From assembly GCA_964586735.1 (NCBI GenBank), contig CAZPIN010000089.1, forward strand, positions 1,200 to 65,199: 64,000 nt of DNA. Reading direction: 5' to 3'. The stretch comes from an uncultured Rhodobacterales bacterium (GTDB lineage: Bacteria > Pseudomonadota > Alphaproteobacteria > Rhodobacterales > CAZPXZ01). Positions 7,443 to 61,500 of this stretch are shown here, in pieces; positions within the stretch are counted from its first letter, which is position 1; each line of letters begins with the position of its first letter. The notes beneath the pieces are model-generated. The model was given only the letters and a program-made list of their open reading frames with translations, was not told the origin of the DNA and did no database searches. The position numbers and the translations under genes were made by a program.

Positions 7443-7486
7443 CGCAACAAGGATAGCTTCCACACGGCGATGCAACGGAGGCAGTG

Positions 7487-29236: not shown

Positions 29237-30607
29237 TCAAGCAACGCCAGTTACCGTAATGTCAGAATCGAAGAGCACAATCCCGCTGTCGCTTCGGTAG
29301 GTCGCCGTGTATGCCGCGTATCCAAATTCATCAGAGCCTGCTGCGCGGACTACACCGCCTCCGACTATGTCAATAGCGTCGTTGTTTTCGCCTTCAAACC
29401 TGATGGCGATTCCCTCCTCTTCCAGGCCGCCCTGCAAGATCAGGATCTGCTTAGCGGTGAGAGAAAGCGTTGTGCTGGCGGAGCCCTCTAGCGAGACTTC
29501 ATCGATTCCTTTGACAACTCTCGCAACACGGTCTGTCAGGGTGTATGAACTGGTGCCCTCGTCGCTGTCGACATCCAGCGCCATCCGATCAAACACAAGA
29601 TCCGGATCGCTATCCTCGTCCCCATCGTATGCCGTCGCCCCCGGCTCGCTGCCCGCTGTGCCGCCGAGATCGAATTTGGCAGCAATTCCATGCTCATACT
29701 CGTCGAGTGGAAAGGAAAATTCTATATCTGAGGTACCGTCAGCGTCGGTGTCCATTTCCACATCGATTCGGTTTCGAGTATTAAATGAATGAATGCTCCA
29801 GATATGCCTTTCGTTCACTTCAGCAAAGTCCTCCGGGGCATGGTCAATCTCCACGACCACATTCTCGTCTTGGAAAACGAAAGTTGCCTCGTCTCCTGCG
29901 TTCCTGTATGCTGTGACAAGAAAAAGCAGCCCCTGTATCCGGAATTGCTGAAAATCCTTCACGCTGTCCTTGCCAACCGCTTCCATGAGTTCGTTTCTGG
30001 CCAAGGGTCCATAGATGGTTTCGTAGGCATCCAAGGTGTTTCTGGCATCTTCCGCATTTGCCGTCTCGGCGCCGCGCATGCCCTCAATTGACCTGAGCAA
30101 TGAGAGTTCGGCGCCCGCTTTCTCCTCCTCGTCATCACCGAAAAGGAACACCGCTCCCGCCACCAGTATAGCCAGTCCGCCCAGAATGACCCAAGCCGAA
30201 CCCGGCTCGCCGCCCCCCGACGTCCTATTCTGGGCCAGTACCGACTCGATGTCGACAGGGGCGGCTCCGAACATCTCTTCCAGCCGTCCCAGCGCCATTC
30301 GCTCGACGTAGACAATTTCTCCATCGGCGGAGACGTGGATGGCGGACACTTCGCCTGACAAACCGCCCTGCAAGAGCAGCACAGGTTCTTCTTCTTTCGA
30401 GCGGGAGAAATACCCCTCCAGCACAAGCTCGCTTCCGTCCAGCAGCACGACTGCCAAATCGTCGCCCTCGCGGCACGTCAGCGCTACATCATCCCAGTAC
30501 GCTGGCAGAATCACCCCCTGGACGCCTTCGGGCGCCTGCGTTCGCGAACGGCCGTCCCCCGCTGCCGCCTTGGCATGAACACTCCCACAGTCCATCATTC
30601 CCTCCAT
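29237..30607 (-). CDS. Polyacidic family member C (one ~285-aa module)
   Basis: 456 aa. N cassette: CREGDDLAVVLLDGSELVLEGYF...ALGRLEEMFG. Hydrophobic helix: WVILGGLAILVAGAVFLFG. One helical + DxDxDG + C-cassette module follows. Ends GIVLFDSDITVTGVA. The start could be one of the ATGs at 30607-30595. Confidence 0.8.
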   Translation of the reverse strand: MEGMMDCGSVHAKAAAGDGRSRTQAPEGVQGVILPAYWDDVALTCREGDDLAVVLLDGSELVLEGYFSRSKEEEPVLLLQGGLSGEVSAIHVSADGEIVYVERMALGRLEEMFGAAPVDIESVLAQNRTSGGGEPGSAWVILGGLAILVAGAVFLFGDDEEEKAGAELSLLRSIEGMRGAETANAEDARNTLDAYETIYGPLARNELMEAVGKDSVKDFQQFRIQGLLFLVTAYRNAGDEATFVFQDENVVVEIDHAPEDFAEVNERHIWSIHSFNTRNRIDVEMDTDADGTSDIEFSFPLDEYEHGIAAKFDLGGTAGSEPGATAYDGDEDSDPDLVFDRMALDVDSDEGTSSYTLTDRVARVVKGIDEVSLEGSASTTLSLTAKQILILQGGLEEEGIAIRFEGENNDAIDIVGGGVVRAAGSDEFGYAAYTATYRSDSGIVLFDSDITVTGVA

Positions 30608-30744: not shown

Positions 30745-33700
30745 CTAAATGGTTATGTCCGGGTCTACGTAAATCGTACCGTCTGTCCCCTCATAGATGA
30801 TGAGACCTCGGTCATCCATATCAGCGCCCGCTGTGCCGTCGATGTCTACGGCCTCAATGCCGATGCCGGGCGTAAAGATGGAGCCGCTGGGCCCCCTCAG
30901 GACAAGTTCGTAGTCCTGGTCCGGCGAGCCGTCGCCGTTGCCATCCGCAAGCAGCGTAAGCTGGGCGTCGGTGATTGCTAGTGTCGTCCCCGACGTTGAG
31001 TCGCCGTCCATCTGAATATCCCGTATCCCAGCGAGAAACCTTGCCTGCTCGTCGGTTAGCGTCAGCTGGAGCTCTTCGCTCAGCGACATGCTATCAATCA
31101 CGAGGTTGCCGGGGGCAATTGGGCTTCCATCAGTTAGCGTCACATCGTTGACGCCGTTACCGCTCCAGTCCATCTTCAGCTCCAGCTGCGGGCCGGTTTG
31201 ACCGGGCAGGGAAACGAAGAGCGTCTGGTCCGTCGTGGTATCCGCGTCCTGGTCCACTGCAATCTCGATGATGCCCTGGCCATCGGCATCGAGCGTCCAT
31301 GTGTGAATGGCTTCCACCGTACCATCGTCTTCGCGATCAAGCCTGAAAACCACCACGTTGAGATCCGGCGTACCATCGTCATCCATGTCGACGCCAAATG
31401 TCGGCTCCTTGCCCTGATACTCGGACTGCAGGTAGGTGTTGACCAGAGGCACCATCCCCTGGATTGCGGCGAGATGGGCAGGCTCCAGCGCGTCCGGACT
31501 CTCACGCAGGCTGGCCATGGCTTCCGCGCCATACAGCGCACCGTACGATTCCAGCAGCCAGCCGGCGTTGCGCTGATTGGCGCCCTGCACCGCCGCCTGG
31601 CGCAGCACCGCCATCTCCCGCCAAGCCCCTTCGCCAATGGCAAGCGTAACGTCCCTGTCCAGAAGCAGCGTTGCGCCCATCAGCGAAAACGCGCGATGCG
31701 TCGTTGTGTCCTGGCTGGTATCGGGGGATATGGAAAGGGCGGGCAATGCCAGCACATCGCCAATGTCGGCCTCTACGGTAAGCGTGTAGCCATGATCCAC
31801 GCTCCCGTCGCGGTCACCGTCAGCCAGCAGCGACAGCGTCTCGGGCGAGATGGAGATATCCGTGACTCCGTTCGTCGCCATCTGCACCTCCTTGATCCCG
31901 CCCAGCAGCCTCGCGTGGTCTGTGGCAAGCACAACCGTCTGGTTTCCCGTGAACTCGATGCGATCAATTACCAGATCAGCGCTTCCCCAGTCGCCTCCAC
32001 CATCGATCACTGCCGTTTCCGCCGTACCGTCTCCATCGAAATCCACCTGCCCCCGAAGCGCTGTCCCGTCCTGATCAGCAATCACAAGAACAACAACCGC
32101 ATCCACCGTGTCGTCGGCGTTGTTGTCAACGCTCAGCTCGAGCGCTCCCTCGACGTCCCCGCTAAGCGACCAGTGATGTACCGCATCAGTGGAGCCGTCG
32201 TCATCGGCGTCAAGGTCCAGCGTAACCCGGTCTTGCCGCTCCGTCAGGGCTAGATTGTACCCCGAGGTCAGATAGGCGCCGTACAGGCGGGCTAGTCCCT
32301 GCAGCCCCGCAAGTTGCTCCGCCTCCGCGCTGCTCGGATCTTCCCGCAGACCATCGATTATCTCCGTGCCAAACAGAACCCCGTAGGCCATCAGCACCTG
32401 CTCGGCTGTCTTCACGGCAGCCTGCTGGGAGCTGCCCGGAGGGGCAACGTCAATGGACAGCTGCCGCAGCAGCGAAAGGTCCCGCCACGCGCCTTCGCCG
32501 ATGCCAAAAGTTATGTCCTTGTCCACCTCAATCGTCACGCCCGGCACCGAGTAGGCGCGGTATGTTTCTCTGTCCTGACGGGGCAGTCGCTCCAATGTAC
32601 CGTCGCTGACCAGTACAATGTCGGAGCTGTCACCATTGATTCTCAGCGTGTAGCCGTCTTCCTGTCCCGATCCCAGTGCTTCCAGCTGCGGCACGGTAAT
32701 GGAAATTTCGGTTACCCCGTTGTCGGCGAGGGAAACCTCCCTCACACCAGCCAAATACGCCGCGTCCACGTCGCGAACCTCAATCGCGTCGTCCATGTCG
32801 AACACCAGCCGGTCAAAACTGATGCCGTCGCCGTACAGGGTAGCGTCGCCCGTACCGTCCCGCTCGAAATCCACCTCCGCCACAATTATCGCCGCCGTCT
32901 GCTGCGCTGGCTCCAAGAGAAACACCGCGTCGATGGTTTCCGACGCTTCGACATCGACATTCACCGCCAGCAGTTTTTCTTCGGCGCCGCCCGGCATCCA
33001 GGTGTGGGTCACGTCCGCCGAGCCATCGCCGGTCAGGTCAAGGCCGAGCACCACCTCGCCATCCCCGTAGGTGATCCGGTCCTCAGTCACGGTCTGCTCC
33101 CCCAACGCGTTTTGGGAGTTTAGGTAGGCATTGACGATATTCAGCAGACCCTGAATCTGAGCCTTGGCCTCGTCGTCGACCTCTTCGGGATTCCCCGTGA
33201 GCGCCGCCAGCGCCTCCTCTCCGAACACCGTCTCGAAGGACTTAACGGCAATTTCCGCGCTTGTTTCGTCAGCCCCCTCTAGCCCCAGGTCCTGGACGAT
33301 CTGCTGCTCACGTGGAAGGCCGCCGCCGCCGTCGTCGCCGCCGCCGAAAACGCTCGTGCGCTCGTAAAGGTAGCCGATGATCAGGACGATGAGGCCCAGC
33401 TCCTGGTCAGACAGGCCCAACCAATCGGCGATGAACGGCATGTCGCCACTGGAGTGGCTTTCGCGTCTGGCAAACATTTCGTCCAGCCGCCCCAAGGCCA
33501 CGGGTTCGCCATCGGCTATCGCGCTATCGGCTGACGGCAACGCCGTCTCCGGCCAGTCTCCGGCGCTGACTGCTACCGCGCAGGCATCTGCCCCAGCATC
33601 CAGCGAAACCAGATTGGCAAAGCAGCCGACGACCCGCAGCTGCCTTCCGTCGACCAGCACAACCACAAGGTCATTGCCCTCGCGAAACACCCCCTCCACC

Positions 33701-33807
33701 TCATGGCGACGGCCAGGAGGCAGATATCTCCAGACGCTTTCGTCCAAGACATTCTGGCCGCGGGCGGCGACGGCAGCCATCGTCGGGGGATCGTCTTGGA
33801 AGACCAT
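30745..33807 (-). CDS. Polyacidic family member D (three tandem ~285-aa modules)
   Basis: The track ORF begins at TTG 33930, which is the TTG of a TTGACA box, so I prefer ATG 33807 (MVFQDDPP...). N cassette: FREGNDLVVVLVDGRQLRVVGCF...ALGRLDEMF. Helix: LGLIVLIIGYLY. Three modules are delimited by GIGEGAWR[DE][LM].[LV]LRQ at ~32500 and ~31640. Ends GTIYVDPDITI. Confidence 0.8.
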   Translation of the reverse strand: MVFQDDPPTMAAVAARGQNVLDESVWRYLPPGRRHEVEGVFREGNDLVVVLVDGRQLRVVGCFANLVSLDAGADACAVAVSAGDWPETALPSADSAIADGEPVALGRLDEMFARRESHSSGDMPFIADWLGLSDQELGLIVLIIGYLYERTSVFGGGDDGGGGLPREQQIVQDLGLEGADETSAEIAVKSFETVFGEEALAALTGNPEEVDDEAKAQIQGLLNIVNAYLNSQNALGEQTVTEDRITYGDGEVVLGLDLTGDGSADVTHTWMPGGAEEKLLAVNVDVEASETIDAVFLLEPAQQTAAIIVAEVDFERDGTGDATLYGDGISFDRLVFDMDDAIEVRDVDAAYLAGVREVSLADNGVTEISITVPQLEALGSGQEDGYTLRINGDSSDIVLVSDGTLERLPRQDRETYRAYSVPGVTIEVDKDITFGIGEGAWRDLSLLRQLSIDVAPPGSSQQAAVKTAEQVLMAYGVLFGTEIIDGLREDPSSAEAEQLAGLQGLARLYGAYLTSGYNLALTERQDRVTLDLDADDDGSTDAVHHWSLSGDVEGALELSVDNNADDTVDAVVVLVIADQDGTALRGQVDFDGDGTAETAVIDGGGDWGSADLVIDRIEFTGNQTVVLATDHARLLGGIKEVQMATNGVTDISISPETLSLLADGDRDGSVDHGYTLTVEADIGDVLALPALSISPDTSQDTTTHRAFSLMGATLLLDRDVTLAIGEGAWREMAVLRQAAVQGANQRNAGWLLESYGALYGAEAMASLRESPDALEPAHLAAIQGMVPLVNTYLQSEYQGKEPTFGVDMDDDGTPDLNVVVFRLDREDDGTVEAIHTWTLDADGQGIIEIAVDQDADTTTDQTLFVSLPGQTGPQLELKMDWSGNGVNDVTLTDGSPIAPGNLVIDSMSLSEELQLTLTDEQARFLAGIRDIQMDGDSTSGTTLAITDAQLTLLADGNGDGSPDQDYELVLRGPSGSIFTPGIGIEAVDIDGTAGADMDDRGLIIYEGTDGTIYVDPDITI

Positions 33808-34340: not shown

Positions 34341-36500
34341 TCAAGCTACAGCTATCTCCGGGTCTACGTAGAACGTAACCACCACCGCCGCGCTGTCGCT
34401 GGGGTCAACAACTTCAAAGGGCGTGAACGTCTCGCCATCGATCATCACGTCAGCACCAGCCTCAACGCCCTCGATGGCGACGCTGTCGTTGCCGTCTCCG
34501 TAGATTTTGATCCCGTGGCCCGGTTCGCCTGCCGCGCTCTCCGCCCACTCGAGCAGGCTTTCCAGCGAGATCGTGATGCTCGTTGCCTCCTCGTGCAGCG
34601 TGATGCTCTCAAGCTCGCCCAAGTCGAAGATTTCCCCCAGATTCAACGAAGACGACGGGAGCGAGTCCATGTTGTATGTCCCCCCAGCCAAAATCTCGGC
34701 CGACACCAAATCGTAGTTGCCGTCACCATCGTCTTCGCTGTATTCGCCGATGTATCTGACATCATACGCGCCATCGGCGTCGAAGTCGATACTTGCCGAT
34801 ATCTGGCGGAACCCGAGCATGCGGCTAAAGTCCAGCTCATACCTTTTCTCGGGCACCAGCTGGGACGGGAACTGGTCGCTGTCTCCAGTGGCGACTGCAA
34901 ACTCCGCCCTGTTGTTCGCCAGATTGTCGAAGCTCCACTCCTCATAATGCCATTCATCCGCGTCCCCCAGAGCCGCGAAGCCAATCTGGTCCACGCCCTT
35001 TATCTCGTTGGTCACAGTGTTGATTTCCAACTCTGTGTTGCGCAGGGCGTAATTGTAGTGCAAGAGGGAAACGATGCCCTGCACCTGAAGCAGGGTCAGG
35101 TTCTGTCCTCCGTTTCCCGCCTCCTTCGCGATAGCCAGCACATCCAGCAAATCCTGCAGGATCGCGTTCGACGGGGCGCTTAGGTCGTCTACGTCGACGC
35201 CCGCCGTGCGAAAGTCATTCCAGATGGCGCTTCCGGCGTTGATTCTCGCCATCGCCGCCACTTGCGCGGGGTTGTTCGGGTCAATGAACTCCATTCTGCT
35301 GACCGTGCCGTCGTCGTTGTCGGACACCGCCACACTGTCCGCCCTTCCGTCGCCGTCGGTGTCGCGCTCGATGCGGTCGACGGTGCCGTTCGCGTCGCCA
35401 GTGCCGTCACCATCGATATCAGCCCTGACCGCCAGCTCGTTCTCGTCGCGGTAATGGTACTGGTGCTCCTCGTCGTGGGTGCCGTTGTCCTCGGTCCCAC
35501 CGAAGAACCTGGCTCCGACGGGTCTGTAGCCGTTCCCCGTATCGAAACTTGCTGTCTGGTCGGCTGTGCCATCGCCATCGGTATCGACGCCAAAGTCCAG
35601 CGAATCATGGTCGTCGTCCGTGTTGCGCGGGCTGCCCAGCGACCGCGCGGCTGGGCCGGCTGGGGCAGTCGGATCAAAGTCGACGGACACGACCCGAGCG
35701 TAGCCCTGGTCTACGTTCACCGTAGAGGCTCTTTCCACCGCGTAGGCGATCCTCTCCACCTCGGTACTGCTGAGACTCTGGCCACCGCCAAGCTCCGCCA
35801 CCGTGTCCATCAGATTGTGCAGCAGGTTTTCCCTGTCGGCGGCGCTGGCTCCTGCTGCCACCTCGACGCCGAAGCGTCCCCAGTCATCGAGACTGGCGCT
35901 GCCGCTGTTGATCCTGCCCAGCGCGGCTGCGTCCGGGTTGCTGCCGTCGCGGTCGCTGTCGCTGCTTGAAGTCAGCGCTACGGCCGCCAGGGTAATCGTG
36001 CCTCCGACGAGCAGCGGTCCAATGAGTGCCGAGCTGCTCTCCTGCAGCGCTTGTACACCAGGCTCCAGCAGGGGCTCCTCAGCGAAATCGCCATCGACGC
36101 TGAACATCTCGTCGAGACGCCCAAGCGCTGTTGGCTGCGCGGCGGCGGCCATGCCGTCGGCGTTTACATCCAGAACGGCCATCTGCCCATCCGGTCCCTC
36201 GGTGGTGAGCAGCACGGGACGATCCGCTATGGGAATGGGAAGTGGGGTGGACGTGAGCGGGATATCGTCACCGTCGGAGCCATCCGCCATCGAGAAGCCC
36301 GCAAAGTACCCCTCGACAAGCAGCAGCCGTCCGTCGGCCACTTCGACCACAAGGTCGTCTCCCTGGCGGAAAGTGCGAATCACCTCCGCCCGCGAAATGG
36401 GAAGGTGAACCTCCCTGGTCTCGATGGAAACGGCGAAGCGCTCATGCACGGCGAACTCTGCGTTGGGCCGGGCGAGCGTACTGCATCCGATGGCGCTCAT
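34341..36500 (-). CDS. Polyacidic family member E (two modules)
   Basis: 719 aa. N cassette: FRQGDDLVVEVADGRLLLVEGYF...ALGRLDEMF. Helix: LIGPLLVGGTITLAAVALT. Two helical segments of the type ARINAGSA.W.DF...GV.V, each followed by DxDxDG loops. Ends VVVTFYVDPEIAVA. Confidence 0.8.
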   Translation of the reverse strand: MSAIGCSTLARPNAEFAVHERFAVSIETREVHLPISRAEVIRTFRQGDDLVVEVADGRLLLVEGYFAGFSMADGSDGDDIPLTSTPLPIPIADRPVLLTTEGPDGQMAVLDVNADGMAAAAQPTALGRLDEMFSVDGDFAEEPLLEPGVQALQESSSALIGPLLVGGTITLAAVALTSSSDSDRDGSNPDAAALGRINSGSASLDDWGRFGVEVAAGASAADRENLLHNLMDTVAELGGGQSLSSTEVERIAYAVERASTVNVDQGYARVVSVDFDPTAPAGPAARSLGSPRNTDDDHDSLDFGVDTDGDGTADQTASFDTGNGYRPVGARFFGGTEDNGTHDEEHQYHYRDENELAVRADIDGDGTGDANGTVDRIERDTDGDGRADSVAVSDNDDGTVSRMEFIDPNNPAQVAAMARINAGSAIWNDFRTAGVDVDDLSAPSNAILQDLLDVLAIAKEAGNGGQNLTLLQVQGIVSLLHYNYALRNTELEINTVTNEIKGVDQIGFAALGDADEWHYEEWSFDNLANNRAEFAVATGDSDQFPSQLVPEKRYELDFSRMLGFRQISASIDFDADGAYDVRYIGEYSEDDGDGNYDLVSAEILAGGTYNMDSLPSSSLNLGEIFDLGELESITLHEEATSITISLESLLEWAESAAGEPGHGIKIYGDGNDSVAIEGVEAGADVMIDGETFTPFEVVDPSDSAAVVVTFYVDPEIAVA

Positions 36501-37642: not shown

Positions 37643-39043
37643 ATGTCCGGATACGAATGGACCTTCAAGAGCGTATCTCTGCTCAAGAAAATGCATGCCA
37701 AAGGCGCCGCCGCATCCGCCATTGCCAAGGCGATTGGCGGGAACATCTCGCGGAACGCCGTCATCGGCAAGATCCACAGGCTGGGGCTCTCCATGCCCAA
37801 AGCACAGCAGGAGAAACCGAAGGACGACTCCGGGAAGAAGGGAGACCCGTCTGCCAAGGTCGCATCTGCCACGTCCAAGAGGACAGTGCCTGCGACGCCG
37901 CTGAGTGCCTATGTCAAAGCCAAGGTCAAGGCCAAGGCCAAAACCGCGGCTGAAGGCAGCGGCGCGAAGGCCGAGTCCGGAAAGCCGACCGCCGCCAGAA
38001 AGAACCGCCCGGCAAGCGACGCGGCCGCTGCGAAGCAGACCGTCAAGCCAACCGCAGCCAAGACTCCCATCGCCAGCTTGAAACCGCCCGCGGCCAAGCA
38101 ATCCAACACCAAGCCATCCGCAGCCAAGCCCGCCAGCGCCAAGCCACCCGCAGCCAAACCTGCCAGCGCCAAGAAGCCGCTTGCCAAGAGCGCACTCAAG
38201 ATCGACCCCAAGACGGCAAAGCCATCCGCAAAGCCCGCAGCCCCTGCGGCCAAGGCAGCCACCAGCCCCAAGGCAAAAGCAGCAGACAAGGCCGATGCCA
38301 AACCAGCGGCCATGGCCAAGGCCGCCGCGGCAAAGCCGACCGAAATCACTAAGGCGCCCGCCGCTGCGAAAGCACCTGTCAAGAAGGCCAAGACTGTCGC
38401 AGCCACCAAAACATCGCCTGAGAAAAAAAACCTGGCGATGCCAACACCCGCTACCAGCGGCAAGACCGCTGCCAAGCGAAAGCCCTTGGCGGTGCCGGCG
38501 CCCGCCGCGAAAGCACCCGCAAAGATGGCAAAGGCTGCCGCAGCCGCATCAGCCAGGAAGTCGGCTGGAGCAAAAAAGGCAGCCAGAACACCGACTGGGA
38601 AAAAGCCGCTGGCAATGCCAACCGTCGCCGCCAGTGGCAAAACCGCAGCCAAAGGGAAACCCCGGGCGATGCCGGCGCCTGTTGCCAGCGGCAGAAAGCC
38701 CGTCAAGGCTAAGCCCGACGCGAAGTCAACCGCAGTCGCCGCGAGAAGCAGCAATGCCCCGGCCAAGCCGGCAGCCTCCGCCAAACCGAAGTCCAAGGAA
38801 GCGCAGTCGACCGCAGCGGCGGCGAGCCGCGACAGCGCTCCCGACAAGCCGCCGATTCTGGTGTCTCTGGTAGATCTCACCGAGCGCATCTGTCGCTGGC
38901 CCTACGGCGACCCGAAAACTGACGACTTCGGCTTCTGCGGCCGCCCGGCCATGGCCGGCAAGCCGTACTGCGAACAGCACGCCGCAGCGGCGTTTCAGCC
39001 GCCTAGCGCGCGCAGAGAGCGCGGAAGAGTCCGCAACCGCTGA
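37643..39043 (+). CDS. gcrA: GcrA cell-cycle regulator with a ~300-aa Ala/Lys/Pro-rich insertion
   Basis: GcrA N-terminal DNA-binding domain: WTFKSVSLLKKMHAKGAAASAIAKAIGGNISRNAVIGKIHRLGL. C-terminal domain: LVDLTERICRWPYGDPKTDDFGFCGRPAMAGKPYCEQH. A long AKP-rich repeat linker separates the two domains. Confidence 0.85.
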   Translation: MSGYEWTFKSVSLLKKMHAKGAAASAIAKAIGGNISRNAVIGKIHRLGLSMPKAQQEKPKDDSGKKGDPSAKVASATSKRTVPATPLSAYVKAKVKAKAKTAAEGSGAKAESGKPTAARKNRPASDAAAAKQTVKPTAAKTPIASLKPPAAKQSNTKPSAAKPASAKPPAAKPASAKKPLAKSALKIDPKTAKPSAKPAAPAAKAATSPKAKAADKADAKPAAMAKAAAAKPTEITKAPAAAKAPVKKAKTVAATKTSPEKKNLAMPTPATSGKTAAKRKPLAVPAPAAKAPAKMAKAAAAASARKSAGAKKAARTPTGKKPLAMPTVAASGKTAAKGKPRAMPAPVASGRKPVKAKPDAKSTAVAARSSNAPAKPAASAKPKSKEAQSTAAAASRDSAPDKPPILVSLVDLTERICRWPYGDPKTDDFGFCGRPAMAGKPYCEQHAAAAFQPPSARRERGRVRNR

Positions 39044-40343: not shown

Positions 40344-40599
40344 ATCATTTTGCAGCCGCCGTCTCAGCGTCTCCTTCGTTCCACCACATCATGTACAACC
40401 CTAGATGGACGATCAGGCGCAGGGCTGGACTCATCCACGCCTCTCCGCAAACACCGCTGCGTTACCGCCGTATCCTGACCCGGACGCCCGATTCTGCAAT
40501 TGAGACTGTTTCCCACTTCCGGGACTTTGACACAAAGCGCCCCCAACTGCCCCGATTGGAATGGACTCCCGTTTGGAACAGCATGCGCTCTTCTTGATG

Positions 40600-41079
40600 T
40601 CACTCCAAGTGAGGTGACAACTTGTCTCCGTTGAAATATATTACATGGCTTGGTGAATCTGCGCACCACACCACTGTTTCCCAAGAAATTTCCTGCAAGT
40701 GCCTTCCCATCACCGATCTATCAGGGAACGCGGATACCAGCACCAGTTTTGACTGGCATGGCTCAAACAGCCGCATGAGCTCCCCAAATCGCTTCGCGTC
40801 GGCTGGACCATGACTGACCACGCATTCTACCAAAAGGAGCCAATCCTTCTTTTCGTAATGCAATACCACATCTGGCATCTTGCCGTGCTTATCCAGTGTA
40901 ATACCCGCATTAGCCAGCCAAATTTTGTCCATATACTTGTTCTTTGTCTGTGTGTCGCCAACATATATTGCTTTTGCGCCCGGCGTGAACCTTGGTGCAA
41001 ATTCCTCAATTGCATCCTTTGCCAGATTGTTATGGTCTCCTGGCGAAAGACTCAATTTCTTTCCGCCTTGAAATACCAC
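40600..41079 (-). CDS. BsuBI/PstI-family restriction endonuclease, C-terminal (catalytic) portion only
   Basis: LSPGDHNNLAKDAIEEFAPRFTPGAKAIYVGDT...MPDVVLHYEKKDWLLLVECVVSHGP...ISWETVVWCADSPSHVIYFNGDKL matches the family C-terminal domain as I recall it. The track start is a GTG. The ORF is in the same frame as 41092-43233, separated by a TAG plus 4 codons. Confidence 0.6.
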   Translation of the reverse strand: MVFQGGKKLSLSPGDHNNLAKDAIEEFAPRFTPGAKAIYVGDTQTKNKYMDKIWLANAGITLDKHGKMPDVVLHYEKKDWLLLVECVVSHGPADAKRFGELMRLFEPCQSKLVLVSAFPDRSVMGRHLQEISWETVVWCADSPSHVIYFNGDKLSPHLE

Positions 41080-41091
41080 ATCGACCTTGCA

Positions 41092-50401: not shown

Positions 50402-53400
50402 ATGACCTTCGCCCAACTCGACGCGAGAGCGTCCATCACCCTTTCCGACAACATGGAAGCTGTACTTTTGCCAGTGCAGCCGAACCAGATTGAGCGCACC
50501 TACAGGGATGGCGACCATCTGGTGGTAGCGCTGGTCGACGGCAGGGAACTGCTGCTGGAGGGGTGGTTTAGCAGGCTGGAGGAAGGAAGCGAGGTCGCGC
50601 TGCTGGCGCGTGACGGAAGTACCGGCGAAATCGTAGCGGTAACCATCACCGAGACCGGTGAGTATGCCAGGACGCAGCCCGTCGCCCTGGGCCGTCTGGA
50701 GGAAATGTTTGACGCCGATGCCAACGCCATCGAGGAGGCGCTGCAGAAGGTCGGGGTGTCCGCGCAAGCCAGAACCGCGGCTGAGGTATTCACCCCTGAA
50801 CTCACCGCGGCGGCGATTGTAGGGGGCGTGGTCCTGGTAGCGGCCGTGGCGTTTATCGAAGAGTCCGAGGGGGAGCCCGAGCAAGCCGGGGCCGACAGGC
50901 CCGCAGTCACCGTTACTGCCGTTGACGATGATGGAGACGGAACCCCGGACGACAGCAACAACGACGGCACTCCGGATTTTGTAGACATCGACCCAGGCTC
51001 GGACGGCACCACGGACTTCAGGGTGGAGACAGCAGCCGAGCGGGTGGAAGTTTTTGGGACAAGCTACGAGCTGGATGGTAGCGGGGTGCAGCAGATAAGG
51101 TCAATCGCGCAGCCGGTGGCAGGCATCGAGACCATTCAAGAGGTCGATCTGGGCACGGACGGCAGGCCAGTTGCTATGAGCGTCCACAGCTCGGCGCTGG
51201 ACGAACTGGCGGGTACCGCCAGCGATGCCTACAGCCTGACCGTCGTGGGGGGCAGCGACGACCAGATAGCGTTTCTGGATGGCATCGTGTTCCAGGTGGA
51301 TTCCGGTACGACCGGCTTCAATGTCTACCAGGACCATCGCGGAGCGCGGTACGTCGTCGATGAGGATATCGACGTTGCGGGTGCTGGCTTCTACGAGTCC
51401 CCTCTTGCCGCGATCGTCGGCAAAGTGGAAGATGGCATAGTGGAAGACATCAATCTGGTCATGGTCGGAGCAACCGACGTTGGCGATGCTATCTCGGACA
51501 ATAACCTTGAGCATTTTCACACGCTGCTGGAAGCCATTCGGGACGCATCGGCCAGCGCAGCGGGAGCGGCGGTGAGCAGAAGCATCGCCGTGCCCGCGAA
51601 TGTACCGGCGCTGGACGACCTGACAGAAGGTGATCTGGTGAAGCTGGCCGGGTACGTCAACGACTACGTGCAGGGCAGCGACGACAGCGGCGACATCAGC
51701 ATGACCGCGTCCATCACCGGGCGCACGCTGACCATGACCGTCGAGGACGGGGATGGAACCGACGACAAGGATGTGGAGATCGTGTTCGCCACTGCGGGCG
51801 CGGGGCAAACAAGCCTGGACGCGGCGGTGATCACCCAAAAACGGGACACGGACGGCGATGGCAGCGTAGACCGCGTCAGCATCGACGGGACCACCGGCGA
51901 GGCTGCTGACGGCACTGCAGACCAGCACGAGGATTTCGAGTACGACTCCGATGGTAGCGTAACATCGAAAAGGCTGGATACGGATGCGGACGGCACACCC
52001 GATGGCAGTGAAACCTTCGCGTATACGAACGGGGCCACCCGAGCGGAGCGAGACTCCGACAACGACGGCACTCCTGATCGAATCTCGCATGATGCTGACA
52101 GCGACGGCAATGCCGAGCTCATCGAGCATGACGACGATGACAATGGCACCATCGACCGCACCGAGCATGATGCTGACAGTGACGGCACGCCGGAGCGGAT
52201 CGTACACAACGCCGATGCGGCTGGCGTCAACGTGCGCACCGAGGATGACGCCAACGACAATGGCACCATCGAACGCACCCGGCACGACGCCAATGGCGAT
52301 GGTACGCCGGAACGGATCGAATACGACCAGGATGAAAACGGCACCATAGACTTGACGACGTCCGATTCCGATGGAGACGGATATGCCGATCTGTGGGAAT
52401 GGGACACGGATGAGGATGGCACCGCTGACTTTAGAGGCTACGACACGGACAACAACGGCACCGTGAACTACTACGAGAATAGATTTGATCGGGGCGGCGC
52501 GCAGCTCCGATTCGACTACGACCGGGACGAAAACGGCACCATCGACCTGACTGCATTCGACTCAGATGGAGACAGGCGAGCGGAACTGCTGCATTTCGAC
52601 ACGGACGAGGACGGGACGCCGGAAGCCACGGGATACGACACGGACGATGACGGCAGAGTGAACTACTACGAGATCGACTCCAATCAAGATGGTACTCTGG
52701 ACGGCTACATCCTGGACGAGGACGACAACGGCTCACCGGACTTCTCGCAGGTTGACAGCGACCAGAATGGAGTGTTCGAGTCTGCCACACGTTCCCCCGA
52801 CGCCACGGGGAGCAGGGTTATCCGAGTCGACAATCTGCTGGTCACTCAGCCCTCCGAAGTAATCAGCTATGACCGGCTTGGAAGAATTTCCGCCATTAGC
52901 GTCGACTCGGACCAGAATGGCACCGCCGAAGAGCACCAGACCTATATCTACAACTCCTTTGACCCTCTGGGAAGGGTGGTGGAGGATGCGGCCGATTCAG
53001 CGTTGGATGAAGGGGGAATAGACGGCTCCCTCGACGACATTCACTACTATTTCCATGGTGCCTATATCCCAACTTCTGCAGACGGGCAGGTGCGCGTTGT
53101 GACGGCGGCTAACCCGCAGAGCGAGGGGGGGCTTCCCACGGGCATTGCGATCGACTTTAACGGCGACGGCACAGTGGATGCAGAGGGAGCGCCAGCTGTA
53201 AACGTTGAATCAGTTAGCGAGGACGTCAACGGAACCACTACGGATCTGCTCAATCAGCCGTCAATACAGACCGTGTTCTTCGAGCCGGACGACACGGTAC
53301 GGGACCCGGAAAACCCGTACTGGGTTGAACACTTGGTACACGGCTATACCGGCAACCTCCTTCATGCAACGGTCATTGCGGGCGACTCCATCTATATGCA

Positions 53401-54244
53401 TGGCAGTTTCGCCGCGATCAATATGGCGTACACGTATGGGACCATCGACAGCCAGCCGGACAGCGATCTGCACGTGTCCCGAATCCAGTACGACGTAACC
53501 CATGGTATAGGGGAGGACGCGACAGTGGACCGCGAGTGGGGCGAGGCGTACTCCTATACGCTGACGACAGGTCCCGATGAAGTCACCCAGATCATCGACA
53601 CGATCAGGAAGGATGTCTTCTCAACGGACCATGACGGCACGGCGGATCCCGACCGGACCGAGCTGTATCATTACGACGAGAACGGCATGATCGAAAGCGT
53701 CGAGATTGACAGCGTCGGCACCGACGGAACCGGTACTGCCGACGGCACGTATGACAGCACCGAGACGTATTTCTACGGCCCCGGCGCTTTCTATGACAGC
53801 TATCGCGATACCGGAAAGATGTTCGTCTACAAGACCGTGGACGATGACCGCGACGGGACGGCGGACAGCCTGGATTTTGCCAACGGCGTCACCTACAGCT
53901 TTGCGCCTGGCGCGGATGAGTTGGACGCTCTGGTTGGCATTGCCAGTATCAACCTGTCCGGCACCGCTGACGACCCCGCCTATCCAGCCATTCTGATCGA
54001 CGGCGTGACCACGTTGACCATAACCGACGAGGTGCTGTCAGCGCTTGCGGACCGCGATGGCGACGGCACCGCTGACACCGGCTACACCCTTACCATCGAC
54101 AGCGACGGAACGAACGATGTCGTACGGATCGGAGCCGGCATTGAAATGGTGGCAGGTAGCGACGATGGCGAGGGCCGCGTTTACCATCAGGGAACCGACG
54201 GAGTCATCTACATCGACCCGGATATCACCGTGGAAGCGGTATAG
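50402..54244 (+). CDS. Polyacidic family member F
   Basis: 1280 aa. N cassette: IERTYRDGDHLVVALVDGRELLLEGWF...ALGRLEEMF. Helix: AAIVGGVVLVAAVAFI. An internal C-cassette-like copy lies at ~51135-51385. A 13-residue-period DxDxDG array spans ~51843-52785. Ends GVIYIDPDITVEAV. Confidence 0.85.
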   Translation: MTFAQLDARASITLSDNMEAVLLPVQPNQIERTYRDGDHLVVALVDGRELLLEGWFSRLEEGSEVALLARDGSTGEIVAVTITETGEYARTQPVALGRLEEMFDADANAIEEALQKVGVSAQARTAAEVFTPELTAAAIVGGVVLVAAVAFIEESEGEPEQAGADRPAVTVTAVDDDGDGTPDDSNNDGTPDFVDIDPGSDGTTDFRVETAAERVEVFGTSYELDGSGVQQIRSIAQPVAGIETIQEVDLGTDGRPVAMSVHSSALDELAGTASDAYSLTVVGGSDDQIAFLDGIVFQVDSGTTGFNVYQDHRGARYVVDEDIDVAGAGFYESPLAAIVGKVEDGIVEDINLVMVGATDVGDAISDNNLEHFHTLLEAIRDASASAAGAAVSRSIAVPANVPALDDLTEGDLVKLAGYVNDYVQGSDDSGDISMTASITGRTLTMTVEDGDGTDDKDVEIVFATAGAGQTSLDAAVITQKRDTDGDGSVDRVSIDGTTGEAADGTADQHEDFEYDSDGSVTSKRLDTDADGTPDGSETFAYTNGATRAERDSDNDGTPDRISHDADSDGNAELIEHDDDDNGTIDRTEHDADSDGTPERIVHNADAAGVNVRTEDDANDNGTIERTRHDANGDGTPERIEYDQDENGTIDLTTSDSDGDGYADLWEWDTDEDGTADFRGYDTDNNGTVNYYENRFDRGGAQLRFDYDRDENGTIDLTAFDSDGDRRAELLHFDTDEDGTPEATGYDTDDDGRVNYYEIDSNQDGTLDGYILDEDDNGSPDFSQVDSDQNGVFESATRSPDATGSRVIRVDNLLVTQPSEVISYDRLGRISAISVDSDQNGTAEEHQTYIYNSFDPLGRVVEDAADSALDEGGIDGSLDDIHYYFHGAYIPTSADGQVRVVTAANPQSEGGLPTGIAIDFNGDGTVDAEGAPAVNVESVSEDVNGTTTDLLNQPSIQTVFFEPDDTVRDPENPYWVEHLVHGYTGNLLHATVIAGDSIYMHGSFAAINMAYTYGTIDSQPDSDLHVSRIQYDVTHGIGEDATVDREWGEAYSYTLTTGPDEVTQIIDTIRKDVFSTDHDGTADPDRTELYHYDENGMIESVEIDSVGTDGTGTADGTYDSTETYFYGPGAFYDSYRDTGKMFVYKTVDDDRDGTADSLDFANGVTYSFAPGADELDALVGIASINLSGTADDPAYPAILIDGVTTLTITDEVLSALADRDGDGTADTGYTLTIDSDGTNDVVRIGAGIEMVAGSDDGEGRVYHQGTDGVIYIDPDITVEAV
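51843..52785 (+). repeat. Coding array of DxDxDG loops with ~13-residue spacing in member F
   Basis: Example: DSDNDGTPDRISHDADSDGNAELIEHDDDDNGTIDRTEHDADSDGTPERIVHNADAAGVNVRTEDDANDNGTIERTRHDANGDGTPERIEYDQDENGTIDL... About 20 or more loops can be read off the translation. Confidence 0.8.
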
Positions 54245-58500: not shown

Positions 58501-61500
58501 TGGATCTCGGCTTTAACGGCACCGTGGACCGCACCGAAGCCTACGGCTACAACGACAAGAATCAGATTGTCAGCGCCCGGTTTCACGAGGGCGACAATAC
58601 GGACGATGCGCATTATCTCGAGCAGATCTACGCATATGACGAATATGGCCGCATGTACCGGATCGAGAGCCATACCAATGGCGACGGCACGGCGGAGGAA
58701 GTCCGCAGTTTCGAATTTGACGACCAGGGCCGTATCAGCGCGTACAGGCTGCAGTCCGGCCTTGAGATTCAGTCAGAGACTGACGGAGCTGGATTCACGC
58801 GGGTTGCCGTTTATGGCGTAGACCACACGGAGGAGTTCGAGCGCAACGAGCTTGGCCAGATCGTCAGATCCCAGACCCGCGTGGAGGACGCGGACCCCGA
58901 TGGATACAGGCCGTTCATCGAGTATGAGTGGGACGGTCAGGGACGGTTGGTAACGGAGCGCCACGACATATTTGATCTGTCACAGCTTGATATCCCGCTC
59001 CTCCCAGGCCTTCCTCCCCCACCGCCATCGCCGCAGGCTTTCGAGCTGGGTTTTGAATACGAATACAACGCCGCAGGGCAGGTCGCCAGACGCGTCGAAC
59101 TTGTGAGCGTGGACGGCACGCTTGAAGAAAAGGCGGCGACCAGATTCGAGTATGACGATCTTGGCAGGCTTTACCTGAAGACTGTCGAGGGGGAAGCCGA
59201 ATTCGGCAACGGCAGGCCGACCACCACCAGCTTCTATGCCAGCGGGAGCTACTTTGCCTTTCGGAAGTCGCTGGCCAGCGAAGTCGCGTACCTTGAGGAC
59301 TATCTGGGAGCCGACGTTGGAGGCGACCGTCTGTCGGACACCGCGGGAACCGACGGCAGCGCGGGCGCCGACGGTACGGCGGACGACTTGTGGGGAGTTG
59401 GCGACCGGTTCGCCGACGCGAACAGCGACGGGAGGCCAGACGACGTCTGGCACGACCGCGACGGCGACGGAACGGCAGACGATTTCTGGAGAGACAACGG
59501 CTACCTGCATAGTGATGGCTGGGTGGAATTCAGCGACAGATTCGCGGACGGCACGCCGGACGATTTCTGGTCCGATGTCAACGGCGACGGCAATTATGAC
59601 GATTTCCTGCCAAATCTTGTAACGTTCAATCCTGGCGACAGAATTGCGTACAACCACCGCGGGGTAACCATCATTCATCCCGGTGACGCGATTGTTGATA
59701 TTGGAGGTACCACTGATACGGGCATGATTGGATCTGACGACAGGCACGTCATCGACGAAAGCAATGTGATTGCGGTTGCCTCCGGCTTCGTGAGGGTCAC
59801 CGATTCCGATGGCATCCGTACGATTTACGGCGGCGGCACATCGTTTACCGTCGGCGAGGGCGACTGGCTCGCCATATCCAATGGCGCCAGATTTACCGTC
59901 GACGGCGGCAGCGACATAACCGTTTGGCAGGCGAGCTCGATGGTCATCAGGGCCGATGGCACAATTTCCGTCAATCCCGACGGAACCAATGACATCAGGC
60001 CAGACGGCGTTCCAGATGAAAATCCGGACGGCACTCCCGACATGTTCCCTGACGGCACGCCGGACATCAACCCCGACGGCACGCCGGATGACTTTCTTGG
60101 AGCATATGACCTGGACGGCAACGCGATCGGCGACGGCATTCCGGACCTGGTCCCCGGCGTATCCGATGGTACGGCAGATCCGGTTTCCGACGGAACGGTG
60201 GACGATTTCTTTGACGCTGACGGCACTCCGGGAGCGGACGGCACTCCCGATGACGCGGCTCCCGACGGAACCCCCGACCGCGGCTCCGACGGAACGCCAG
60301 AGAGGCTGGTGTTCAGCCATGCTGGGGACCTCACGGTCGACTCGGATTTTTTCGATCCGGCGCGGATCGCCGGCATCAGGGAGATCCATCTGGCGGGAGA
60401 ACGCCTGACGCACTCCATAGGCACAAGATTCGAGATCGCCGACGGGTTTCTGATCGACCTTGCGGAAGCCGGCTCCGCCGACGGTCCGGTGGAAATCGCC
60501 ATCCATGGCCACCGCGCATACTTTGACGCGGACGACGCCATCGCGTTCGAGGGAGATGGATTCCGGCGGGTCCGCTACGACCATGGCGGAAACAGCCTCT
60601 ATGTCGATTCGGACGGCAACAGGCTTCTCGTTGAGCGGGAAGACGTCGCAGTTTCGACGACGTTCACCAGAATGGTTCCGGAGCTTGTCGCGGCGGCCAC
60701 CAGCGGCGCGCTTACGGCGGCGCTTCTCAGAAGCGCAGGGATTGACGTCGCTGCCGAAACGGCCGTCAACAACGCCGAAAAGGTCATTGCCGCTTACGGC
60801 ACGGCCGTGGCAGACATCGATGACCCGGATGCGCGGAGCCTGCTTGAGCTCATCATGACGGACTCGCTGCCCGAGTATGTGAGGCCGTACGCCGCCCTTA
60901 CCGGCGCAAGATACGACGCTTCAGGAGAATTTCTGACGCTGTACATCAACGACGGCGGAGACGCCTCGGGGACGGCTGACCGGACCGCCAGGATCACCTA
61001 CGATGCCGACAGGGGCGGTCTTGCGGTATCGGCTGGATTCTTCCTTGGCGACGACGAGGATGGCGTTCAGCTCTATGGGGACTGGGTGGAAACCTATGCC
61101 TACAACCCCGACAGGAGCATGGTTACTACGATAGAGGCAGGCGGCGAGACTATTGGCCATCTGACATACAGCCTAGACGCTTTCGGCAACACCCTTAGCG
61201 ACGGCACTCCGGACGGTCTGGCGTTGCATGGCGACCTTGTGCTGGACGCGCACTTCGCGCAGATTCTCTCCGGCAACGGCATCAGCGTTATCGATATGGA
61301 CCGGCATATCCCCGAGCGCCCGTTCCAGGCTGCGGAAACTGGGGGGGTCTACACGGACGACGAGGGGACGGAGCAAACCTACGAGGGGCGCCCCGAGGTT
61401 TCCGCCCGGGACGAAGTTGAAGGAACCGCCGCGCATCTTCATCTCTCCGTCGAGTCGCTGGCCGTGCTGGCGGACGAAGACGGTGACGGTACGCCCGACC

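What the first reader, a model, noticed from the sequence alone, without database searches (positions are those of the whole stretch)
30745..33807. The C-terminal 'secretion-signal-like' cassette is reiterated internally (three times in D, also inside F and G)
Seen directly: D contains three copies of the cassette. These are VREVSLADNGVTEISITVPQLEALGSGQEDGYTLRINGDSSDIVLV...VTIEVDKDITFGI, IKEVQMATNGVTDISISPETLSLLADGDRDGSVDHGYTLTVEADIGDVLAL...ATLLLDRDVTLAI, and the terminal IRDIQMDGDSTSGTTLAITDAQLTLLADGNGDGSPDQDYELVLRG...GTIYVDPDITI. Each internal copy is followed by GEGAWR[DE][LM].[LV]LRQ. Comparable internal copies occur in F (~51135-51385, ...YVVDEDIDVAG) and twice in G (~60373-60655 and ~61428-61683, ...VVLVDPSVSTRM). 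Inference: if the cassette were only a C-terminal export signal it should not be reused internally. Either it is a structural or ligand-binding beta-domain that also happens to sit at the end, or multi-module proteins arose by head-to-tail fusion of complete single-module genes such as C.
Basis: partly seen in the sequence, partly recalled or inferred. Interest (0 to 1): 0.65.

Follow-up and report, generated by a model that had tools for sequence, protein, structure and literature searches.

The report
Reused end-domain of secreted giant proteins
The roughly 110-residue "cassette" at the end of seven very acidic giant proteins is a real, folded domain absent from the Pfam, NCBIfam and PDB copies searched; it is typical of proteins exported by type I secretion, and it recurs inside the proteins because whole modules ending in it were duplicated long ago.

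Summary
A profile built only from 305 copies in proteins outside this window finds 12 copies here: three in D, two in F, three in G, and one each in A, B, C and E. E-values run from 4.5e-9 to 3e-21, and the next-best ORF scores 0.29.

An exhaustive search finds the domain in 311 protein clusters. Of the top 150, 112 carry a copy at the extreme C-terminus and 113 carry internal copies. Relatives have RTX repeats or a BapA-type N-terminal domain, and one sits directly upstream of a type I secretion operon.

AlphaFold predicts a confident fold (pLDDT 91). I found no Pfam or NCBIfam model and no PDB match.

In D the repeated unit is a whole module of about 285 aa, and C is a single such module. 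The three modules are orthologous position by position in a distant relative, so the triplication is ancient. The N-terminal domain never recurs internally, so these are not fusions of complete genes.

Terminal copies conserve the final V-D-P-D-I-T-V motif far more strictly than internal copies.

Best reading: the cassette is a structural end-piece of each calcium-binding module, and the last copy also carries the export signal. This is a new variant of a known kind, of moderate interest.

The parts
30745..33807 (-). Gene D (1020 aa as P0001; the longer TTG-started ORF runs to 33930). Layout: N-terminal domain, hydrophobic segment, then three modules.
30748..31113 (-). D3, the terminal cassette, ending ...IYVDPDITI*
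   Evidence: 47.9 bits, external profile; AlphaFold pLDDT 91.2
31636..31983 (-). D2, an internal cassette, ending ...LLLDRDVTLA
   Evidence: 1.7e-10; 58.6 bits
32500..32832 (-). D1, an internal cassette, ending ...IEVDKDITFG
   Evidence: 4.7e-9; 71.2 bits
31597..31635 (-). GEGAWREMAVLRQ, the first helix of module 3, directly after D2
   Evidence: helix at residues 3-14 of the module model
32461..32499 (-). GEGAWRDLSLLRQ, the first helix of module 2, directly after D1
33448..33735 (-). D's N-terminal BapA-prefix-like domain; it occurs once only
29237..30607 (-). Gene C (456 aa). Layout: N-terminal domain, hydrophobic segment, then a single D-type module.
29243..29608 (-). C's terminal cassette
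   Evidence: 57.7 bits
50402..54244 (+). Gene F (1280 aa)
51062..51385 (+). F1, an internal cassette, ...YVVDEDIDVAG
   Evidence: 42.8 bits. The 7-terminus profile misses it.
53846..54241 (+). F2, the terminal cassette, ...IYIDPDITVEAV*
   Evidence: 61.0 bits
55557..63173 (+). Gene G (2538 aa)
60282..60662 (+). G1, an internal cassette with a divergent end (...LYVDSDGNRLLVE)
   Evidence: 0.011; 37.9 bits
61371..61685 (+). G2, an internal cassette, ...VVLVDPSVSTRM
   Evidence: 2.3e-10; 40.3 bits
62739..63164 (+). G3, the terminal cassette, ...LRIDADITVVDITP*
   Evidence: 51.1 bits
5909..6304 (+). A's terminal cassette (gene A is 56-6307, 2083 aa)
   Evidence: 44.3 bits
14386..14745 (-). B's terminal cassette (ORF 14380-14973; database protein P0017 is 192 aa)
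   Evidence: 63.3 bits
34344..34730 (-). E's terminal cassette (gene E is 34341-36500, 719 aa)
   Evidence: 32.0 bits
50801..50857 (+). The single strongly hydrophobic segment after F's N-terminal domain (AAIVGGVVLVAAVAFI). Equivalent segments occur in A, C, E and G, and in BapA_N relatives.

Best explanation
The cassette is an autonomous folded domain of about 110 residues, made of short beta strands and two short helices. It forms the C-terminal end-piece of calcium-binding modules in giant, very acidic surface proteins exported by type I secretion (T1SS).

These proteins leave the cell C-terminus first and fold outside, where calcium is available. I propose that the last cassette is the first part to emerge and fold. 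Its extreme end, V-D-P-D-I-T-V plus a hydrophobic tail of 3-9 residues, would be or contain the targeting signal for the ABC transporter.

Internal cassettes are the same structural domain, closing each earlier module. They arose by ancient in-frame duplication of whole modules and are kept by selection. They probably act as the cap or folding nucleus for the calcium-binding stretch upstream of them, so a multi-module protein can fold block by block from C to N as it emerges.

Shown here: the copies are real; they are predicted to fold; they occur both terminally and internally across 311 protein clusters; they associate with RTX repeats, BapA_N domains and a T1SS operon; the modules are duplicated and positionally orthologous; and the end motif is specifically conserved in terminal copies.

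Inferred, not shown: the signal function, the role as a folding nucleus, and calcium dependence.
For: - Reality of the copies.
- Family size and positions: 311 representative proteins at E<=1e-3. Of the top 150, 112 have a copy within 15 aa of the C-terminus and 113 have internal copies, up to 13 per protein.
- Predicted fold: cassette pLDDT 91.2 and pTM 0.84. The whole D module 3 has pLDDT 91.6 and pTM 0.88, i.e. the helical region, beta region and cassette form one compact unit.
- Link to T1SS:
  - Relatives carry HemolysinCabind RTX repeats, BapA_N above threshold, and T1SS-143 repeats.
  - 60% of terminal and 73% of internal copies in relatives have an RTX-like GxGxDxU motif within 60 aa upstream.
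  - Relative P0060 (BapA_N plus a terminal cassette) is followed directly by three secretion genes: a weak TolC-like outer-membrane protein; an LssB-type T1SS ABC transporter (723 bits, cutoff 693); and a HlyD-type adaptor (306 bits, cutoff 209).
  - The window proteins have a single BapA-like N-terminal domain followed by a hydrophobic Gly/Ala-rich segment, as those relatives do.
- Calcium-binding bodies: there are 0 canonical RTX nonapeptides in the window proteins, but 23, 24 and 46 DxDxDG loops in A, F and G. In 10 of the 12 copies (all but F1 and G2) a DG-containing loop lies just upstream of the cassette.
- Ancient, selected duplication: D_m1, m2 and m3 match modules 1, 2 and 3 of ortholog P0009 at 39-41% identity, against 27-34% between paralogous modules. 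No long DNA repeats remain.
- Terminal specialisation: held-out terminal and internal copies are separable with AUC 0.79-0.91. The largest differences lie in the last motif: D108 is 87% versus 53%, D110 is 80% versus 45%, and P109 is 33% versus rare. Terminal tails are V/T/A/I-rich with a modal length of 5 residues. All 7 terminal copies in the window score higher with the terminal-only profile.
[quoted passage not shown] The T1SS-signal region of MpIBP is a folded domain proposed to nucleate folding (PMC5550230).
Against: - No T1SS ABC, adaptor or TolC genes lie within the 64-kb window.
- The BapA_N matches of the window proteins fall below the curated cutoffs.
- The window proteins have no RTX nonapeptides.
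- The cassette does not match the curated T1SS C-terminal target-domain model.
- Foldseek found no significant similarity to any solved structure, so similarity to CyaA or MpIBP end structures is not demonstrated.
- Only one relative was seen next to a T1SS operon. Other contigs were short or uninformative.
- The terminal-versus-internal separation may partly reflect relatedness among proteins rather than function.
- Secretion, calcium binding and folding order were not measured.
Confidence: 0.58

Rival explanations
1. The cassette is purely a structural or ligand-binding (adhesive) domain with no part in export. It is terminal only because every module ends with it. Any secretion signal lies solely in the few residues after it, or elsewhere.
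For: - The domain body is equally conserved in internal and terminal copies: mean column information is 1.74 versus 1.83 bits.
- Internal copies outnumber terminal ones, 210 to 102.
- The fold is confident and autonomous.
- Published T1SS tags are about 29-60 aa, shorter than the cassette (background in bioRxiv 10.64898/2026.05.28.728472).
Against: - 112 of the top 150 relatives end exactly with this domain.
- The last strand motif, which is inside the domain, is much more conserved in terminal copies.
- Terminal and internal copies remain separable after the last 10 columns are removed, with AUC 0.79-0.88.
- No binding-domain family matched. The only hit was a single-member CBM_35_2 match at E = 0.038.
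Confidence: 0.22
2. Internal cassettes are themselves functional secretion elements. They could be extra docking or ratchet sites for the T1SS as each module passes, or new C-termini exposed by proteolytic processing so that fragments are exported separately.
For: - Internal copies keep a recognisable VDxD[IV] end: D1 VDKDITF, D2 LDRDVTL, F1 VDEDIDV.
- They are conserved over long evolutionary times.
- The unit 'calcium-binding block plus cassette' is reiterated in many relatives.
Against: - The end motif is clearly relaxed in internal copies.
- G1 and G2 have divergent ends.
- No cleavage motif or internal start is evident.
- Nothing here tests interaction with a transporter.
Confidence: 0.1
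3. The multi-cassette proteins are head-to-tail fusions of complete single-module genes, and the internal cassettes are leftover, non-functional export signals.
For: - C, which lies next to D, is a single-module protein of the same kind.
- D is exactly three C-type modules.
Against: - The N-terminal domain and hydrophobic segment never recur internally, either in the window proteins or in 24 relatives.
- The three modules are conserved position by position in an ortholog that is about 40% identical, so they are not decaying relics.
- AlphaFold folds module 3 as one compact unit.
Confidence: 0.03
4. The internal 'copies' are chance or compositional similarity among very acidic D/T/G-rich sequences.
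For: - The proteins are compositionally biased, with 17-22% D+E.
- Pairwise identity between copies is only 17-50%.
Against: - Locally shuffled versions of five family proteins (A, D, E, F, G) score at most 7.8 bits, against 32-37 bits for D1, D2 and G2.
- The external profile gives E = 4.5e-9 to 3e-21 for all 12 copies and nothing else in the window.
Confidence: 0.01

Closest known systems
[quoted passage not shown]
   Same: - A folded element lies directly C-terminal to a calcium-binding repeat block.
- It is the first part to leave the cell.
- It is proposed to scaffold C-to-N folding.
- Large proteins contain several such blocks in series (PMC9120197).
- In relatives, 60-73% of cassette copies follow RTX-like repeats.
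   Different: - No sequence or Foldseek similarity to any solved structure was detected.
- The cassette is a larger, separately conserved domain of about 110 aa.
- The window proteins use DxDxDG (EF-hand-type) loops rather than GGxGxDxUx nonapeptides.
RTX/BapA-type giant adhesins secreted by T1SS (BapA, LapA, SiiE, MpIBP)
   Same: - The general plan matches: an N-terminal prefix or retention-type domain, a long calcium-dependent repetitive body, and a C-terminal export region.
- In MpIBP the signal region is itself a folded domain proposed to nucleate folding (PMC5550230).
- BapA_N is detected.
- A T1SS operon lies next to relative P0060.
   Different: - There are no Ig-like extender domains.
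- There are no RTX repeats in the window proteins.
- BapA_N matches are below cutoff in the window proteins.
- The end domain is a different, uncurated family, and it is reiterated internally.
NCBIfam TIGR03661, type I secretion C-terminal target domain (VC_A0849 subclass)
   Same: It is also a conserved domain at the C-terminus of very large T1SS substrates.
   Different: No match was found. None of the 12 window copies matched at E<=10, none of the seven full-length window proteins at E<=0.01, and none of 10 relatives at E<=0.1. It is a different sequence family.
Extreme C-terminal motif of protease/lipase-type T1SS substrates: an acidic residue followed by hydrophobic residues (for example the last four residues of Erwinia PrtG). 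This is recalled from memory (Ghigo & Wandersman 1994) and was not checked here.
   Same: Terminal cassettes end with D-x-D followed by a V/T/A/I-rich tail, most often 5 residues long. The motif is far more conserved in terminal copies.
   Different: Here the motif is the last strand of a conserved 110-aa domain that also occurs internally. The equivalence of function is an inference.

Membership tests
T1SS substrate (RTX / BapA-like adhesin class) | Canonical RTX nonapeptide repeats (GGxGxDxUx; Pfam HemolysinCabind) upstream of the C-terminus | tested here: not met
   There was no HemolysinCabind hit in A, C, D, E, F or G and 0 strict motifs. The feature is met in relatives that share the cassette: P0021, P0043, P0100, P0105, P0137.
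T1SS substrate (RTX / BapA-like adhesin class) | N-terminal BapA prefix-like or retention domain | tested here: inconclusive
   - Pfam PF22783 gave E = 6e-6 to 7e-4 and NCBIfam NF033677 gave E = 6e-6 to 4e-4; all are below the curated cutoffs.
- The window-derived N-terminal profile hits P0060 (1.3e-7) and P0023 (3e-6), which do pass the BapA_N cutoffs.
T1SS substrate (RTX / BapA-like adhesin class) | Genetic linkage to T1SS genes for the ABC transporter, the adaptor (MFP) and the outer-membrane protein | tested here: inconclusive
   - None lie in the 64-kb window.
- In relative L004, the cassette-ended protein is followed by a TolC-like OMP, TIGR03375 (723 bits, above cutoff) and TIGR01843 (306 bits, above cutoff).
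- The rest of this genome could not be examined.
T1SS substrate (RTX / BapA-like adhesin class) | An uncleaved C-terminal signal that is sufficient for export | not testable with these tools
   This needs secretion assays. The only indirect support is the stricter conservation of the final motif in terminal copies.
T1SS substrate (RTX / BapA-like adhesin class) | Acidic, cysteine-poor, calcium-binding polypeptide | tested here: met
   D+E is 17-22% and K+R is 5-9%. There are 0-3 Cys per protein of 220-2579 aa. A, F and G carry 23-46 DxDxDG loops.
TIGR03661 T1SS C-terminal target domain (VC_A0849 subclass) | A match to the curated HMM at the C-terminus | tested here: not met
   NCBIfam scans of the full proteins, the 12 cassettes (E<=10) and 10 relatives (E<=0.1) gave no such hit.
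CyaA-type RTX block cap | Structural similarity to a solved cap or end structure | tested here: not met
   - Foldseek against the PDB gave no hit at E<=1e-3.
- The best hits had TM-scores up to 0.40, among them the RTX lipases 2zvd, 2zj7 and 2qua.
CyaA-type RTX block cap | Position directly C-terminal to a calcium-binding repeat block | tested here: met
   In relatives, 60% of terminal and 73% of internal copies have RTX-like motifs within 60 aa upstream. In the window, DG-containing loops precede 10 of the 12 copies (not F1 or G2).
Any curated Pfam / NCBIfam domain covering the cassette | A consistent HMM match across copies | tested here: not met
   There were only scattered single-member hits at E>=0.014. 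In relatives the cassette region is left uncovered.

The most novel reading that the evidence does not exclude
The cassette defines a sequence-conserved, structured class of T1SS export and folding domain that has not been curated. Its internal copies would be working checkpoints: each module of a giant substrate ends in its own cap that folds on emergence and ratchets the chain outward, possibly re-engaging the transporter. Export of very long proteins would then be organised module by module. This would add a recognisable consensus (the V-D-P-D-I-T-V end on a roughly 110-aa fold) to a signal class usually described as lacking one. It would also extend calcium-driven T1SS folding to RTX-free proteins built from EF-hand-type DxDxDG loops.
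Probability: 0.25. Interest if true: 0.7.

Novelty: new variant of a known kind. Interest (0 to 1): 0.5.

Why it matters
T1SS signals are usually described as short and lacking a consensus. Here a conserved, confidently foldable domain of about 110 aa marks the C-terminus of proteins in at least 311 protein clusters, spanning Alphaproteobacteria, Gammaproteobacteria (Moraxella) and Verrucomicrobiota. It is not covered by Pfam, NCBIfam or any solved structure.

- Recognising it would improve annotation of giant "hypothetical" surface proteins and prediction of T1SS cargo.
- Its internal reiteration offers a natural test of the idea that calcium-binding blocks need a C-terminal cap to fold as they emerge.
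- The clear difference between terminal and internal copies, confined mostly to the last motif, points to specific residues to mutate.
- It also suggests a compact secretion tag for biotechnology.

Tried and rejected
- **Curated family scans.** Pfam and NCBIfam scans of the whole proteins, the 12 cassettes and 10 relatives gave no family for the cassette.
- **Word-indexed protein searches.**
  - With D as query, the search returned only D itself.
  - With the 84-sequence alignment, it returned only 7 short fragments.
- **Solved structures.**
  - The PDB sequence-profile search found nothing.
  - Foldseek against the PDB found nothing significant for the cassette or the module.
- **Genome-collection scan.**
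  - The cassette and module alignments were too divergent to give search patterns.
  - Cluster look-ups gave no names or organisms for the window proteins.
- **T1SS genes in the window.** None were found.
- **Contexts of other relatives.** They were uninformative or the contigs were too short.
- **Recent DNA duplication.** Rejected; only 20-32 nt matches at homologous DG-loop codons remain.
- **Whole-gene fusion.** Rejected.
- **Shared helical region.** The D/C-type helical region is not detectable in A, E, F or G, so the 285-aa module is specific to the D/C subfamily and only the cassette is shared by all.
- **Extra weak cassette copies in A or E.** None were found.
Full report
**1. What is in the window**

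The window encodes seven related, very acidic proteins:

| Protein | Coordinates | Strand | Length |
|---|---|---|---|
| A | 56-6307 | + | 2083 aa |
| B | 14380-14973 | - | about 195 aa |
| C | 29237-30607 | - | 456 aa |
| D | 30745-33807 | - | 1020 aa as database protein P0001 (a longer TTG ORF runs to 33930) |
| E | 34341-36500 | - | 719 aa |
| F | 50402-54244 | + | 1280 aa |
| G | 55557-63173 | + | 2538 aa |

- They contain 17-22% D+E and 0-3 cysteines.
- All except B begin with a domain of about 95 aa that weakly matches the BapA prefix-like domain. Pfam PF22783 gives E = 6e-6 to 7e-4 and NCBIfam NF033677 gives E = 6e-6 to 4e-4; all are below the curated cutoffs.
- A single hydrophobic Gly/Ala/Val-rich segment follows this domain. 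The same arrangement is seen in relatives that pass the BapA_N cutoffs.
- The protein bodies have no canonical RTX nonapeptides. They carry many DxDxDG loops instead: 23 in A, 24 in F and 46 in G, many of them fitting the 12-residue EF-hand loop pattern.
- The surrounding genes are ordinary alphaproteobacterial genes: GcrA, pstCA-phoU, argD/argF, an NMT1-type ABC importer, and a rhamnose/sugar-methyltransferase cluster. No type I secretion (T1SS) genes lie within the 64 kb.

**2. Checking the observation**

| Copy | E-value | Score |
|---|---|---|
| D1 | 4.7e-9 | 32.3 bits |
| D2 | 1.7e-10 | 37.0 bits |
| G2 | 2.3e-10 | 36.5 bits |
| G1 | 0.011 | 11.8 bits |
| F1 | not detected | - |

Five hundred locally shuffled versions of five family proteins (A, D, E, F, G) never exceeded 7.8 bits.

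A much stronger and fully independent test used a profile built only from 305 copies in proteins outside this window. It finds exactly 12 copies here (D x3, G x3, F x2, and one each in A, B, C and E) at E = 4.5e-9 to 3e-21. This includes F1 (1.9e-12) and G1 (6.5e-11). Nothing else among the 699 six-frame ORFs is hit; the next best has E = 0.29.

**3. The repeated unit in D is a whole module**

Aligning D's three segments with C shows a module of about 285 aa. It consists of a helical region that begins with GEGAWR..LRQ, an acidic beta region with DxDG loops, and the cassette. D has three such modules and C has one.

AlphaFold models D module 3 as one compact unit, with pLDDT 91.6 and pTM 0.88. 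Its helices span residues 3-71, its strands 95-170, and the cassette 183-291.

The helical region is detectable only in D and C, and not in A, E, F or G. The cassette is therefore the only element shared by the whole family.

**4. The duplication is ancient and selected, and it is not a gene fusion**

- Copies are 17-50% identical.
- Only 20-32 nt DNA matches remain between modules.
- A relative, P0009 (1044 aa), also lies near gcrA and is followed by a C-like gene. It has the same three modules.
- Each D module matches the P0009 module at the same position best: 41%, 39% and 40% identity, against 27-34% for paralogous pairs. The triplication therefore predates a deep divergence, and all three copies have been kept.
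- The N-terminal domain profile hits once per protein, always near residues 20-170. This holds for the window proteins and for 24 of the 150 relatives, and it never hits internally.

Fusion of complete genes is therefore not supported. In-frame module duplication is.

**5. The cassette is a widespread, uncurated domain of T1SS-type proteins**

An exhaustive HMMER search of 1.84 billion representative proteins with the 12-copy profile found 311 proteins at E<=1e-3, 54 at E<=1e-10 and 14 at E<=1e-30.

Among the top 150 representatives:
- 112 have a copy ending within 15 residues of the C-terminus.
- 113 have internal copies, up to 13 per protein.

Sampled relatives carry RTX HemolysinCabind repeats, BapA_N above cutoff, T1SS-143 repeats, and VWA or FG-GAP domains. 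Their sources call them 'Ca2+-binding RTX toxin-like protein'. They come from a Verrucomicrobiota MAG and from Moraxella, among others.

In relatives, 60% of terminal and 73% of internal copies have an RTX-like GxGxDxU motif within 60 aa upstream. The reiterated unit is therefore 'calcium-binding block plus cassette'.

One relative, P0060, has BapA_N at its start and a cassette at its end. It lies directly upstream of three genes:
- a TolC-like outer-membrane protein (weak match);
- an LssB-type T1SS permease/ATPase (TIGR03375, 723 bits, cutoff 693);
- a HlyD-family T1SS adaptor (TIGR01843, 306 bits, cutoff 209).

No Pfam or NCBIfam model covers the cassette, including the curated T1SS C-terminal target domain.

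**6. Predicted structure**

With an 84-sequence alignment, AlphaFold gives the D3 cassette a pLDDT of 91.2 and a pTM of 0.84. The model has nine short strands and two short helices.

Foldseek against the PDB gave no hit at E<=1e-3 for either the cassette or the module. The weak top hits include the RTX-containing family I.3 lipases (2zvd, 2zj7, 2qua), insulin-receptor L domains and an LRR, which at most hints at a solenoid-like architecture.

**7. Terminal and internal copies are the same domain but not identical in constraint**

- With profiles built from outside relatives only, all seven terminal window copies score higher on the terminal-only profile, by +1.6 to +19.4 bits. Three of the five internal copies score higher on the internal-only profile.
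- In cross-validation across relatives, split by protein, the score difference separates terminal from internal copies with AUC 0.84-0.91. After removing the last ten columns the AUC is 0.79-0.88.
- The largest differences are in the final motif. D108 is 87% in terminal copies versus 53% in internal ones, D110 is 80% versus 45%, P109 is 33% versus rare, and T112 is 48% versus 22%.
- Overall column information is similar, 1.83 versus 1.74 bits.
- After VDxDI, terminal copies carry a V/T/A/I-rich tail of 3-9 residues, most often 5. Internal copies run into Gly-rich linkers.
- From memory, an acidic residue followed by hydrophobic residues at the extreme C-terminus is the known requirement for protease/lipase-type T1SS substrates. 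I did not verify that citation here.

**8. Interpretation**

That reasoning is sound, and the evidence resolves it this way.

- The cassette is primarily a structural domain that closes each calcium-binding module.
- The terminal copy additionally bears a more strictly conserved end motif, which is the best candidate for the T1SS signal.
- T1SS substrates emerge C-terminus first and fold with extracellular calcium.
- The CyaA literature shows that a C-terminal cap is needed to start vectorial folding of RTX blocks (PMC9120197).
- The MpIBP end region that spans the signal is a folded domain proposed to nucleate folding (PMC5550230).

By analogy, I propose that each cassette is the cap or folding nucleus of its module.

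What is shown: the domain, its distribution, its associations, the duplication history, and the terminal-specific conservation.

What is inferred: the signal function, the folding-nucleus function, and calcium dependence.

**9. Caveats**

- No T1SS genes are in the window, and the genome could not be identified.
- The BapA_N matches of the window proteins are sub-threshold.
- The window proteins lack RTX repeats.
- Only one relative was seen next to a T1SS operon.
- The terminal-versus-internal separation may partly reflect shared ancestry.

**10. Verdict**

- This is a new variant of a known kind: an uncurated end-domain family of T1SS substrates, reiterated internally, here in RTX-free proteins rich in EF-hand-type loops.
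- Interest is moderate, 0.5.

Noticed in passing
window 14383-15173 (minus strand): B looks like a degraded family member. A fragment of the N-terminal domain (profile positions 5-53, E = 6.9e-13) lies at 15012-15155 in ORF 14721-15173. This is a different reading frame from the 'acidic region plus cassette' ORF 14383-15042, and the two ORFs overlap. A deletion plus a frameshift seems likely.
   Followed up: partly
window 50402-54244 (F), 55557-63173 (G), 56-6307 (A): The protein bodies are long tandem arrays of EF-hand-type calcium loops, such as DDDDNGTIDRTE and DANGDGTPERIE. There are 23-46 DxDxDG motifs per protein, with almost no spacer and no flanking helices, and zero RTX nonapeptides. 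A also has YD/Rhs-like 'Y.YD..GR' periodicity between the loops. One cassette copy weakly hit lanmodulin (E = 0.014) for this reason.
   Followed up: partly
window 50801-50857, 55953-56009, 30140-30196, 35973-36029, 665-721: Each protein has exactly one strongly hydrophobic segment of 19-23 residues right after the N-terminal domain (Kyte-Doolittle mean 1.75-2.6). Relatives that pass the BapA_N cutoffs have the same. Whether it is a membrane anchor or the stretch that sits in the TolC channel is unknown. F has TAAA just before it, which resembles the LapG-type TAAG site (recalled from memory).
   Followed up: partly
window 37643-39043 (+): The GcrA cell-cycle regulator homolog is 466 aa, although the Pfam model has 155 positions and its match spans residues 5-459. 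This implies a very long insertion or linker. The region has a strong AT skew (0.19-0.27).
   Followed up: no
window 6639-13374: A sugar-modification cluster lies between A and B. It encodes a TylF-like and a CmcI-type rhamnosyl O-methyltransferase, two epimerase/dehydratases, RmlC, a nucleotidyltransferase and a GT2-TPR glycosyltransferase. It could make a surface glycan or modify the neighbouring secreted proteins.
   Followed up: no
window 41092-43233 (minus strand), in the lower-GC stretch 40001-44000: This gene is a fused restriction-modification protein, combining Eco57I/N6-type methyltransferase motifs with a BsuBI/PstI endonuclease HTH domain. It lies in a stretch of 53-57% GC, against about 62-70% nearby, which suggests a horizontally acquired island between E and the pst operon.
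   Followed up: no
window 34341-36500 (E): E contains two similar helical segments (…LGRINSGSASLDDWGRFGVEVAA… and …MARINAGSAIWNDFRTAGVDVDD…) but only one cassette. The stretch before the second segment (…DDGTVSRMEFIDPNNP…) resembles the start of a cassette, which may mark a deleted internal copy. Similar 'INAYDGTDAT…' helical repeats occur in relative P0060.
   Followed up: partly
L007 (relative contig, 9081 bp): The arrangement of a D-like three-module gene followed by a C-like gene of about 439 aa, close to gcrA, is conserved in a relative. The relative's proteins are only about 40-56% identical to D and C, so the paralog cluster is old and syntenic.
   Followed up: partly
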